A model generated the notes under the pieces. It was not told the DNA's origin, searched no databases, and worked only from the letters and a program-made list of their open reading frames with translations. Shown piece by piece: positions 36,801 through 39,800 of a stretch of DNA of 64,000 bases. Positions within the stretch are counted from its first letter, which is position 1; each line of letters starts with the position of its first letter. The DNA comes from Pristiophorus japonicus (lineage: Eukaryota): the NCBI RefSeq assembly GCF_044704955.1, contig NC_091977.1, positions 79,484,001 through 79,548,000 of the forward strand, in the 5' to 3' direction. Made by a program: the position numbers and the translations under genes.

Positions 36801-39800
36801 CGAGCCTGCACCACTATTCAACAAGATCATGGCTGATCATTCACCTTAGTACCCCTTTCCTGCTTTCTCTCCATACCACTTGATCCCTTTAGCCGCAAGG
36901 GCCATATCTAACTCCCTCTTGAATATATCTAAACGAACTGGCATCAACAACTCAGGCAGAGAACTCTACAGGTTCACAATTCTCTGAGTGAAGAAGCCTC
37001 TCCCCATCCCGTTCCCAAACTGCCCACCCTGCATCACCTAGACCGTGATCCCTGGTTTCGGACTCCCAACATCGGGAACACTCGCCCTGCATTCAACCTG
37101 CCCAGTCCCGCAAGAATTTTATATGTTTCTATGAGATCCCCTCCCACTCTTCCAAACTCCAGCGAATACAGGCCGTCGATCCAGTCTCCTCTCATATGTC
37201 AGTCCTGCCATCCCGGGAATCAGTCCGGCGAACCCTCGCTGCACTCCCTCAATAGCAAGAACATCCTTCCTCAGATTAGGAGACCAAAACTGAACACAAC
37301 ACTCCAGGTGAGGCCTCACCAAGGCCCTGTACAAATACAGCAAGACCTCCCTGCTCCTATACTCAAATCCCCTAGCTATGAAGGCCAACATGCTACTTGC
37401 CCTCTTCACCGCCTGCTGTACCTGCATGACAACCCTCAATGACTGATGTACCATGACACCCAGGTCTCATTGCACCTCCCATTTTCCTAATCTGCCACCA
37501 TTCAGATAATATTCTGCCTTCATGTTTTTGCCACCAAAGTGGATAACCTCACATTTATCCACATTATACTGCATCCGCCATGCATTTGCCCACTCACCTA
37601 ACCTGTCCAAGTCATGCTGCAGTCTCTAAGCATCCACCCCTCACAGCTCACACCACCACCCAGCTTAGTGTCATCTGCAAACTTGGAGATATTACTCTCA
37701 ATTCCTTCATCTAAATCATAAATGTATATTGTAAATAGCTGGGGTCCCAGCACAGAGTCCTGCGGCACCCCACTAGTCACTGCCTGCCTGCCATTCTGAA
37801 AAGGATCCATTTATCCCAACTCTCTGCTTCCTGTCTGCCAACCAGTTCTCTATCCACATCAATACATTACCCCCAATACCACGTGCTTTAATTTTGCACA
37901 CCAATCTCTTGTGTGGGACCTTGTCAAAAGCCTTCTGAAAGTCCAAATACATCACGTCCACTAGTTCTCCCCTTGTCCACTCTACTAGTTACATCCTCAA
38001 AAAATTCCAGAAGATTTGTCAAGCATGATTTCCCTTTCATAAATCCATGTTGACTTGGACCAATCCTGTCACTGCTTTCCAAATGCGCTGCTATTTCATC
38101 TTTAATAATTGATTCCAACATTTTCTCCACTACTGATGTCAGACTAACCGGTCTATAATTCCCTGTTTTCTCTCTCCCTCCTTTTTTTTTTAAAAAAGTG
38201 GCTTTACATTAGCTACCCTCCAGTCCATAGGAACTGATCCACAGTCGATAGACTGTTGGAAAATGATCACCAATGCATCTATTATTTCCAGGGCCACTTC
38301 CTTAAGTACTTTGGGATGCAGACTATCAGGCCCTGGGCCTCTATTTCACCACAAAATATCCCAAATAGAAACAAACTATTTGCATTTGACATAAACCAAG
38401 TGATAATCTCCACATTTTGTCAACAGCAATTTAGAGTGCTGCTAAATTTATACTTCAGCTCAGTATAAAACAGTTCTTGACTGATTAACTGTGTTAAATA
38501 GGAATGACATCACATACCAGGTTCATCAAGATGCTCTCTTCCTGGAAGTTCATTGATATTTATATCCCCTAAATCTCCAGTCTTGGGGTCAATGGCTGCG
38601 TTGGACAATTCATTCTCAAATGTTTGAATTTCCTCTGCAGTGGCTGTCCGCTCTTCAGCCTCTGTAAACACTCTTATTACACCATCACTGCAGCAGAAGA
38701 AATTGCATCAGCATACCAAAGCAATAACCTTCATTTATATAGCAACTTTAACATAAAACATGCCAAGGCACTTCACAGGAACATTATCATACAAAATATG
38801 ACACCGAGCTACAAAAGGAGGTATTAGGATATGTGACCAAAAGCTTGGTCAGAGGTAGGTTTTAAAGGAGGGTCTTGAAGGAGGAGAGATAGGAGGATGG
38901 AATTCCAGAGCTTCAGGTGTAGGCAGCTGAAGGCAAGGCTGCCAATGGTGGAGAGAAAGAAAATTGGGAATGTGCGGAGACCAGAAATCTCGGAGGGTTG
39001 CAGGGTTGGAAGAGGTAAGGGAGATAGGGCTCAATTTTCCCCAAAGCTTTTTTTTGGCGTACTTGAAGAGTTACGCCAATTTTTTGGGGCCCAAGTACGC
39101 CAAAAAAAGTGTTTCCCCATTGGATTTCTTCATTTTGAAGTGGCCTAACCGGTCTTTTAGTTTTGGGGGTGGAGCCTTGATCTGCGCCAAAAAGATCGGG
39201 CTGCCATGGTAACCAGGGACACAATGCAAACTGAGGCTGCAAAGTGAAGCAGACAGCCAGCTCCCCAACATATTAAAAGAATTGAACAACACATAACAGC
39301 AACTTACCTCCAACCCCGCTCAAAGGGCTTGTCGGTCTGGTCCCATTCTAGGTCCCCATTCTCCTGGTCCAATTCTCGGTCCCCGGTTCCATTCTACAAT
39401 TTCTCCCCCTCGAACCAGGGACCGAGAATGGGACCGGACCGGGAGAATGGGGACCTAGAATGGGACCAGACAGCCTTCGGGCAGGGTTAGAGGCAAGTTG
39501 CTATGTGTTTTTCAATTCTTTTACGGTGTGTCCGGGCATCTGCTGTGCCGATTTCCTTAATTGCGCCAATTTAACTCTCCACAAGGGTTTTCTGGAAAGG
39601 CCACATACGCTGGCTTAAGCAGAACTGGAGTGACACTCAACTGGCCTAACTTCCATTAAATGACCAGAATTGGCACAGGTGGCTGATTACACCCCCTTTG
39701 GCAGAAAAAAAAACTGACCTAAAATCGTTATTAATTGAGTTTCACTAGTGCAAATGGATTTGAAAAACCAGAGTTTCCCCACTTAGCCCAAAAAGAGCAG

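What the first reader, a model, noticed from the sequence alone, without database searches (positions are those of the whole stretch)
36960..37580. Strand-specific T>C hypermutation in one CR1 copy: possible fossil of ADAR A-to-I hyper-editing
Seen: against the sibling copy at about 52985-53610, this copy has roughly 20-25 T>C changes on the + strand with few reverse changes. Examples: gtttctcctcatctcagtcctaaatggcttaccc > gcctctccccatcccgttcccaaactgcccaccc; tctggtgaa > tccggcgaa; caatattcc > caacactcc. These are A>G on the CR1 (and PLAA) RNA strand. CpG decay and APOBEC give C>T/G>A, and GC-biased conversion is strand-symmetric, so neither fits. Inference: an edited RNA was written back into the genome by retrotransposition or RNA-templated repair. 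Neighbour contexts are mixed, so this is not proven.
Basis: partly seen in the sequence, partly recalled or inferred. Interest (0 to 1): 0.75.

Follow-up and report, generated by a model that had tools for sequence, protein, structure and literature searches.

The report
RNA-editing scars fixed in LINE DNA
A retrotransposon copy in a gene's intron carries a one-strand burst of A-to-G changes and at least a dozen other copies in this genome do too, most likely because ADAR-edited RNA was reverse-transcribed into inherited DNA.

Summary
Against 30 sibling copies, the CR1-like copy (36760-38337, minus strand, PLAA intron) has 34 T>C and 0 A>G in 36960-37580; siblings have 1-8 T>C. A public-run contig matches 36968-37139 exactly at single-copy depth. 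Searching with the tract found 12 more independent copies with dense sense-strand A>G clusters. One has its unedited source locus: 120 of 146 mismatches are A>G, the copy is 5'-truncated, and it splits an older, unedited element. Pooled context fits ADAR: 5' U 61%, A 54%, C 31%, G 20%. None of 94 randomly sampled copies is hypermutated, so the class is under about 3% of the family. For the window copy alone the context signal is weak, no source was found, and it has unexplained doublet changes and indels. Best reading: ADAR-edited RNA retroposed into the germline (0.8). Ten literature searches found no report of this for LINEs.

The parts
36760..38337 (-). 5'-truncated, broken LINE copy (CR1-like; the label is recalled from the 3' tail and layout, not checked against a repeat library): 3' part of ORF2 plus 3' UTR
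   Evidence: RVT_1 matches in three minus-strand fragments, 37601-38208; stops and frameshifts; 87% to the sibling at 52786-54348; both flanks unique among the 40 best matches scored
36964..37435 (-). A>G hypermutated tract on the element's sense strand (T>C on +), densest at 36997-37111 and fading towards the element's 5' end
   Evidence: 33 of the 34 T>C calls, 0 A>G; per-50-bp density
36946..37240 (-). Core with extra doublet substitutions and 4 small indels, unexplained
   Evidence: 9 of 21 non-A>G changes in the tract lie next to an A>G, 10% expected; 4 indel events against a baseline mean of 0.8 in 105 copies
36968..37139 (+). Stretch confirmed letter for letter in a public-run contig at single-copy depth
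   Evidence: table 8, records 2 and 10
34363..36204 (+). Inverted LINE of another family, 556 bp from the edited copy; possible pairing partner in the PLAA pre-mRNA; not itself edited
   Evidence: about 68% identity to the edited copy; 6 T>C and 9 A>G
52786..54671 (-).
   Evidence: 4 T>C, 0 A>G over the homologous stretch; 8 T>C, 6 A>G overall
32207..32368 (-). PLAA exon (PFU domain), downstream of the edited copy
42909..43136 (-). Open frame holding a PLAA WD40 exon, upstream of the edited copy
   Evidence: weak WD40 match, E 1.5e-4; stronger WD40 frames at 45471-45668 and 47804-47959
15329..15877 (-). PLAA PUL-domain exon

Best explanation
The copy is a broken LINE fragment whose one-strand A>G cluster most likely records ADAR A-to-I editing of the RNA it was probably reverse-transcribed from. 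Steps: (1) a transcript holding the element pairs with an antisense copy (inferred; no partner found); (2) ADAR deaminates about a fifth to over half of the adenosines in the paired stretch (inferred from purity, density and context); (3) a LINE reverse transcriptase primes at the 3' tail and reads inosine as G (the RNA-copy anatomy is shown for the C13 copy; the enzyme is inferred); (4) the 5'-truncated product inserts in the germline and then ages like its siblings (insertion into an older element shown for the C13 copy; ordinary divergence outside the tract shown for the window copy). The process recurs: 13 independent copies were found.
For: Window copy: 34 T>C, 0 A>G; at T sites in 36960-37580 only 2 other changes, both T>G; RNA-strand 5' G depleted, 7 of 47 against 25 of 73, p=0.021 in 36990-37440. 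Its changed sites are changed more often in 10 edited copies that were not found with it as query (mean 0.53 against 0.35, p=0.003). Class: 10 of 12 candidate loci fetched from the top hits have 19-39 sense-strand A>G per 250 nt (for example L241 93 A>G and 2 T>C; L242 85 and 2); the 94 random copies have at most 6. Pooled 567 of 1546 A: 5' U 0.61, A 0.54, C 0.31, G 0.20 (p 1e-26); 3' G 0.43 (p 3e-4), as described for ADAR hyper-editing (PMC4365171, passages). Source-copy pair: C2:103.74 Mb is 100% identical to the C13 copy over a 91-bp junction; 120 of 146 mismatches are A>G, 5' G 15 of 125 (p 2.5e-7), 3' G 52 of 134 (p 0.002). The copy shares 27 of 41 private variants of the source, and the family majority is A at 96 of the 120 sites, G at 9, uncalled at 15. 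It starts inside the source's longer upstream element, ends at the 3' tail, and splits an older element whose two halves have 2 of 147 and 1 of 37 A>G, against 102 of 297 just inside.
Against: No source locus for the window copy (best 93%) or for L080 (93%), so its route is inferred by analogy. It alone has excess doublets (9 of 21; none of the 12 others is significant). Its 3' G enrichment is not significant. Ordinary A>G mutation in random copies is also mildly low after G (1.1% against 1.5-1.8%) and slightly higher at the same sites (0.016 against 0.012, p=0.012), which weakens the context and site tests for this copy. No inverted repeat lies within the 9.5 kb fetched around the C2 source. 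The other copies were selected for likeness to an A>G copy, so strand bias across the class is untested, and none was checked against reads. In cultured human cells L1 RNA showed no ADAR1 editing (PMC5224506, passages).
Confidence: 0.8

Rival explanations
1. Rewriting in place: the copy inserted unedited, the PLAA pre-mRNA was edited where it pairs with the inverted neighbour, and a repair polymerase copied the edited RNA back over about 470 bp (or ADAR acted on the DNA strand of an RNA:DNA hybrid).
For: Element sense equals PLAA sense. An inverted LINE lies 556 bp away, 69-81% alike per 100 bp over the tract. The tract is internal and carries extra doublets and indels, as an error-prone polymerase might leave. 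No source locus was found.
Against: The neighbour arm is unedited (1 T>C, 6 A>G in 35500-36204) and pairs no better over the tract than elsewhere. Internal tracts also occur in the C13 copy, which is shown to be a moved copy. An old source would no longer be recognisable.
Confidence: 0.1
2. Error-prone DNA synthesis with no RNA editing: dG put opposite template T by Pol eta or Pol iota, or during second-strand synthesis with skewed dNTP pools.
For: The doublets and indels of this copy. Pol eta also prefers A after A or T (recalled), which overlaps the 5' preference seen.
Against: 34% of T sites changed in the core with 94% purity at T, far above Pol eta rates as I recall them. The graded U>A>C>G and 3' G preference, and 102 A>G against 3 other changes at A in the first element of the source-copy pair, fit ADAR better.
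Confidence: 0.06
3. Assembly error, an unsampled C-rich subfamily, gene conversion from a diverged copy, or transcription-coupled mutation bias.
For: Only 40 candidates are scored per search. Only 17 of 34 sites were checked in contigs, from one sample.
Against: Exact contig match at single-copy depth; no other copy above 84% in the core; 26 of the 34 sites are shared by at most 2 of 30 siblings in 36990-37440; other LINEs in the same gene show no such bias.
Confidence: 0.04

Closest known systems
APOBEC DNA-edited retroelements (PMC4866542, passages; lizard L1 in PMC3880073, passages)
   Same: Single copies with dense one-type, sense-strand changes, fixed at insertion and recognised against a source element or family majority; rare (about 0.26% of lizard L1).
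   Different: Those are G>A from cytidine deamination of cDNA. Here it is A>G with an ADAR-type context, implying editing at the RNA stage. In the LTR screen other cluster types were called negligible; the lizard screen passages I saw tested G>A against C>T only and found nothing in CR1.
A>G hypermutated avian retroviruses (Rous-associated virus, avian leukosis virus; review PMC12925331, passages)
   Same: Clustered A>G in nearly half of the adenosines, attributed to ADAR on retroelement RNA and carried into DNA by reverse transcription.
   Different: Exogenous LTR viruses in culture; here a non-LTR element, several events, in the assembled host genome.
ADAR hyper-edited RNA in repeats (PMC4365171, passages)
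   Same: Clustered A>G, G depleted 5' and enriched 3'.
   Different: Normally seen only in RNA against DNA; here it is in the DNA.
ADAR1 restriction of LINE-1 (PMC5224506, passages; review PMC4982230, passages)
   Same: ADAR meets LINE RNA.
   Different: Reported as editing-independent, with no L1 editing detected; the 2016 review says a role of ADAR editing in mutating retroposing Alus was not yet determined.

Membership tests
ADAR hyper-editing signature | Clustered A>G on one strand with few other changes | tested here: met
   34:0 in the window copy; 120 of 146 in the source-copy pair
ADAR hyper-editing signature | G depleted at the 5' neighbour | tested here: met
   Window copy p 0.02-0.05, weak because background shows a mild version; pooled others p 1e-26; pair p 2.5e-7
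ADAR hyper-editing signature | G enriched at the 3' neighbour | tested here: inconclusive
   Met in pooled others (p 3e-4) and the pair (p 0.002); window copy p 0.04-0.84 depending on the stretch
ADAR hyper-editing signature | Long double-stranded RNA substrate | tested here: inconclusive
   No inverted repeat in 9.5 kb around the C2 source; source of the window copy unknown
ADAR hyper-editing signature | Editing seen in RNA and dependent on ADAR | not testable with these tools
   No usable RNA run
Retroposed (RNA-derived) copy | Matches a source locus elsewhere, 5'-truncated, ends at the 3' tail, new flanks | tested here: met
   Met for the C13 copy. For the window copy truncation, tail and unique flanks are met but no source was found
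APOBEC-edited retroelement | G>A on the element's sense strand | tested here: not met
   Sense-strand G>A (C>T on +) is 8 against 34 A>G, within the sibling range of 1-9
CR1 clade LINE | Non-LTR reverse transcriptase ORF2 | tested here: met
   RVT_1 fragments
CR1 clade LINE | Clade placement by repeat library or tree | not tested

The most novel reading that the evidence does not exclude
Beyond the recurrent class of edited, retroposed LINE RNAs, this particular copy was rewritten where it sits: edited PLAA pre-mRNA served as template for an error-prone repair polymerase, which would explain its doublets and indels. That would be an inherited RNA-to-DNA correction at the RNA's own locus.
Probability: 0.1. 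Interest if true: 0.95.

Novelty: new variant of a known kind. Interest (0 to 1): 0.8.

Why it matters
A-to-I editing is usually taken to stay in RNA. These copies would be a heritable DNA record of it: which germline transcripts were double-stranded, how densely ADAR edited them, and that a LINE reverse transcriptase copies inosine-rich RNA into a lasting insertion. It is the RNA-level counterpart of APOBEC-edited retroelements, bears on whether ADAR mutates retroposing elements in vivo, and can be tested by re-running published pairwise screens for A>G on LINEs in any assembly. The source-copy pair also shows a read-through transcript of two truncated copies being retroposed. For repeat annotation, such copies look older than they are.

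Tried and rejected
Dating by orthologue: four runs of other organisms (X9, X10, X12, X13) gave no piece across the unique flank or the tract, so no date; X5 and X8 showed no long piece over the tract. No RNA holder listed for the stretch. Source search for the window copy and L080 failed; no second copy of either flank. The all-against-all scan (814,448 callable bases of 2.03 Mb) gave 21 clusters; besides the window copy, L072-L075 and L080, I inspected four and rejected them: L170 is a tandem repeat, and L060, L133 and the L005 flank are mixed or weak. The other ten (T>A, C>T, G>A) were not inspected. Of the 12 candidates fetched, L246 is unedited and L250 is intermediate (16 A>G, 1 T>C; 8 per 250 nt, under my cut-off of 9) and was left out of the pooled counts; L251, a close relative of the window copy, is unedited. 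Doublets as inherited variants: 2 of 9 tested are shared, each by 1 other copy; one search had site 37189 shared by 6, so that one depends on the alignment. The flank test returned 0 sites through a script fault and was redone. Earlier findings of the scan: nothing in 3 look-ups.

Full report
What is there. The window holds most of a PLAA gene on the minus strand: PUL domain at 15329-15877, PFU exons at 31166-32368, WD40-matching frames at 42.9-63.6 kb. The finding lies in an intronic, 5'-truncated LINE copy at 36760-38337, also minus strand, with broken reverse transcriptase fragments. The genome is 5.92 Gb.

The observation. Against the column majority of 30 other copies (29 genome hits plus the window sibling), 36960-37580 has 34 T>C, 0 A>G, 8 C>T, 2 G>A and 8 transversions. 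The 30 others have 1-8 T>C each. The excess is confined: 3 T>C in the 200 bp nearest the 3' end and 5 in 37581-38337. Density peaks at 8 of 16 T sites in 37010-37059 and fades by 37440. A strict count without doublet sites and shared sites is 22. Contigs from two runs of one sample match 36968-37139 and 36974-37139 with no difference, at the depth of the unique flanks, while ordinary parts of the element pile up depths of hundreds of thousands to millions. That covers 17 of the 34 sites. The sample may be the assembly's own, so this tests error, not fixation in the species. The best other genomic match to the core is 84%.

Context in this copy. Read on the RNA strand, 7 of 61 adenosines after G are changed against 27 of 111 others (p=0.047); in 36990-37440 it is 7 of 47 against 25 of 73 (p=0.021). 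3' G is 16 of 61 (p=0.16). This leans ADAR but is weak, and ordinary A>G mutation in random copies is also mildly low after G.

It is not alone. An all-against-all scan of 2.03 Mb of fetched DNA (814,448 callable bases) recovered the window tract and two other strong loci, both pulled in by the search with the C-rich core: L072-L075 on C13 and L080 on C15. L072-L075 are 99.5-99.7% identical and carry 116-118 of 118 shared changes, so they count as one event. Searches with three edited pieces of L072 gave further candidates; I fetched 12. Ten have 19-39 sense-strand A>G per 250 nt with at most 4 T>C per 250 nt, one is intermediate and one is unedited. That makes 13 independent copies with the window one. 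In 94 copies from 1.77 Mb taken without regard to sequence, the maximum is 6 A>G and 5 T>C per 250 nt. The class is thus under about 3% (95% bound) of a family of very roughly 300,000 copies. Pooled over the 12 other copies, 567 of 1546 adenosines in the tracts are changed: 5' U 155 of 255, A 182 of 340, C 115 of 376, G 115 of 575; 3' G 246 of 579. Depletion of G upstream and enrichment downstream is the described ADAR pattern (PMC4365171, passages); the order U, A, C, G is recalled. The sites changed in the window copy are changed more often in the 10 copies not found with it (0.53 against 0.35, p=0.003), though background mutability is also slightly higher there (p=0.012). Because these copies were selected for likeness to an A>G copy, strand bias across the class is not tested.

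A source and its edited copy. The junction between two tandem elements in L072 has a 100% match at C2:103,741,750. That locus (L238, 3843-6307) holds the 3' part of one element, a spacer of about 50 nt and a second element. Against it the C13 copy has 146 mismatches in 2306 columns, 120 of them A>G; 5' G 15 of 125, 3' G 52 of 134. By segment: 102 of 297 A, 1 of 72, 15 of 46, then 2 of 256, with 5 more A>G in the last 186 nt. The copy shares 27 of the source's 41 private variants; 9 of the 120 are better read as G>A in the source. It begins inside the source's longer upstream element and ends at the second element's tail. It splits an older antisense LINE whose halves join up in two relatives and are unedited, 2 of 147 and 1 of 37 A. 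The changes therefore belong to the piece that moved and stop at its borders. This is what an edited read-through RNA, reverse-transcribed from its 3' tail and truncated at the 5' end, would leave. No inverted repeat lies in the 9.5 kb read around the source, so the pairing partner is unknown.

What does not fit. The window copy has no recognisable source (best 93%). Nine of its 21 other substitutions in the tract sit next to an A>G (10% expected); none of the 12 others shows this significantly. It has 4 indels in 301 columns against a mean of 0.8 (1 of 105 baseline copies reaches 4), though edited L241, L242 and L247 have 4, 3 and 3. This keeps two rivals alive for this copy: rewriting in place from edited PLAA pre-mRNA, and error-prone DNA synthesis. 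Against the first, the inverted neighbour is unedited and pairs no better over the tract. Against the second are the density and purity at T sites. Dating by orthologue failed.

Known and new. The closest kinds are APOBEC-edited retroelements (G>A; PMC4866542 and PMC3880073, passages; PMC2873906, passages) and A>G hypermutated avian retroviruses (review PMC12925331, passages). ADAR1 restricts L1 without detected editing (PMC5224506, passages), and a 2016 review left mutation of retroposing Alus by ADAR open (PMC4982230, passages). A review of editing and retrotransposons gave no such case in the passages seen (PMC5974252). Ten full-text searches (listings only, except the papers named above) showed no report of ADAR-edited LINE copies fixed in a genome. 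The library lacks most subscription papers and I read no supplements, so prior art is not excluded.

Verdict. The feature is real and belongs to a recurrent class in this genome. ADAR-edited RNA retroposed into the germline: 0.8 for this copy, higher for the C13 copy. New variant of a known kind; interest 0.8.

Noticed in passing
L238:3843-6307 (G000:C2:103.74 Mb) and L072:877-3182 plus L239:1-185 (G000:C13:194.23 Mb): Unedited source and its hyper-edited, 5'-truncated copy; a cleaner case than the window finding. The source lacks 27 bp present in the copy.
   Followed up: yes
L072-L075 (G000:C13:194.21-194.28 Mb): Four near-identical copies of the edited insertion with its flank, 17-34 kb apart: a recent local duplication or uncollapsed assembly.
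   Followed up: partly
L241, L242, L248, L252: Very heavily edited copies (46-93 A>G); some show lengthened G runs on the sense strand where edits join existing Gs.
   Followed up: partly
window 2038-2747 and 9611-10472: Two halves of one copy of the same family, split by a 6.9-kb insert with 89% identical direct repeats of about 340 bp at 2747-3089 and 9273-9611; looks like an LTR element.
   Followed up: no
94 random family copies: Sense-strand asymmetry in ordinary changes: G>A 914 against C>T 480, A>G 365 against T>C 257; not normalised for base composition. Light editing could contribute to the second.
   Followed up: no
L250 (G000:C2:242076900-242077900): Intermediate copy, 16 A>G against 1 T>C, suggesting a continuum of lighter editing.
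   Followed up: partly
L170:7401-7760: Tandem repeat of about 21 bp that mimics a T>C cluster; a false positive for such scans.
   Followed up: yes
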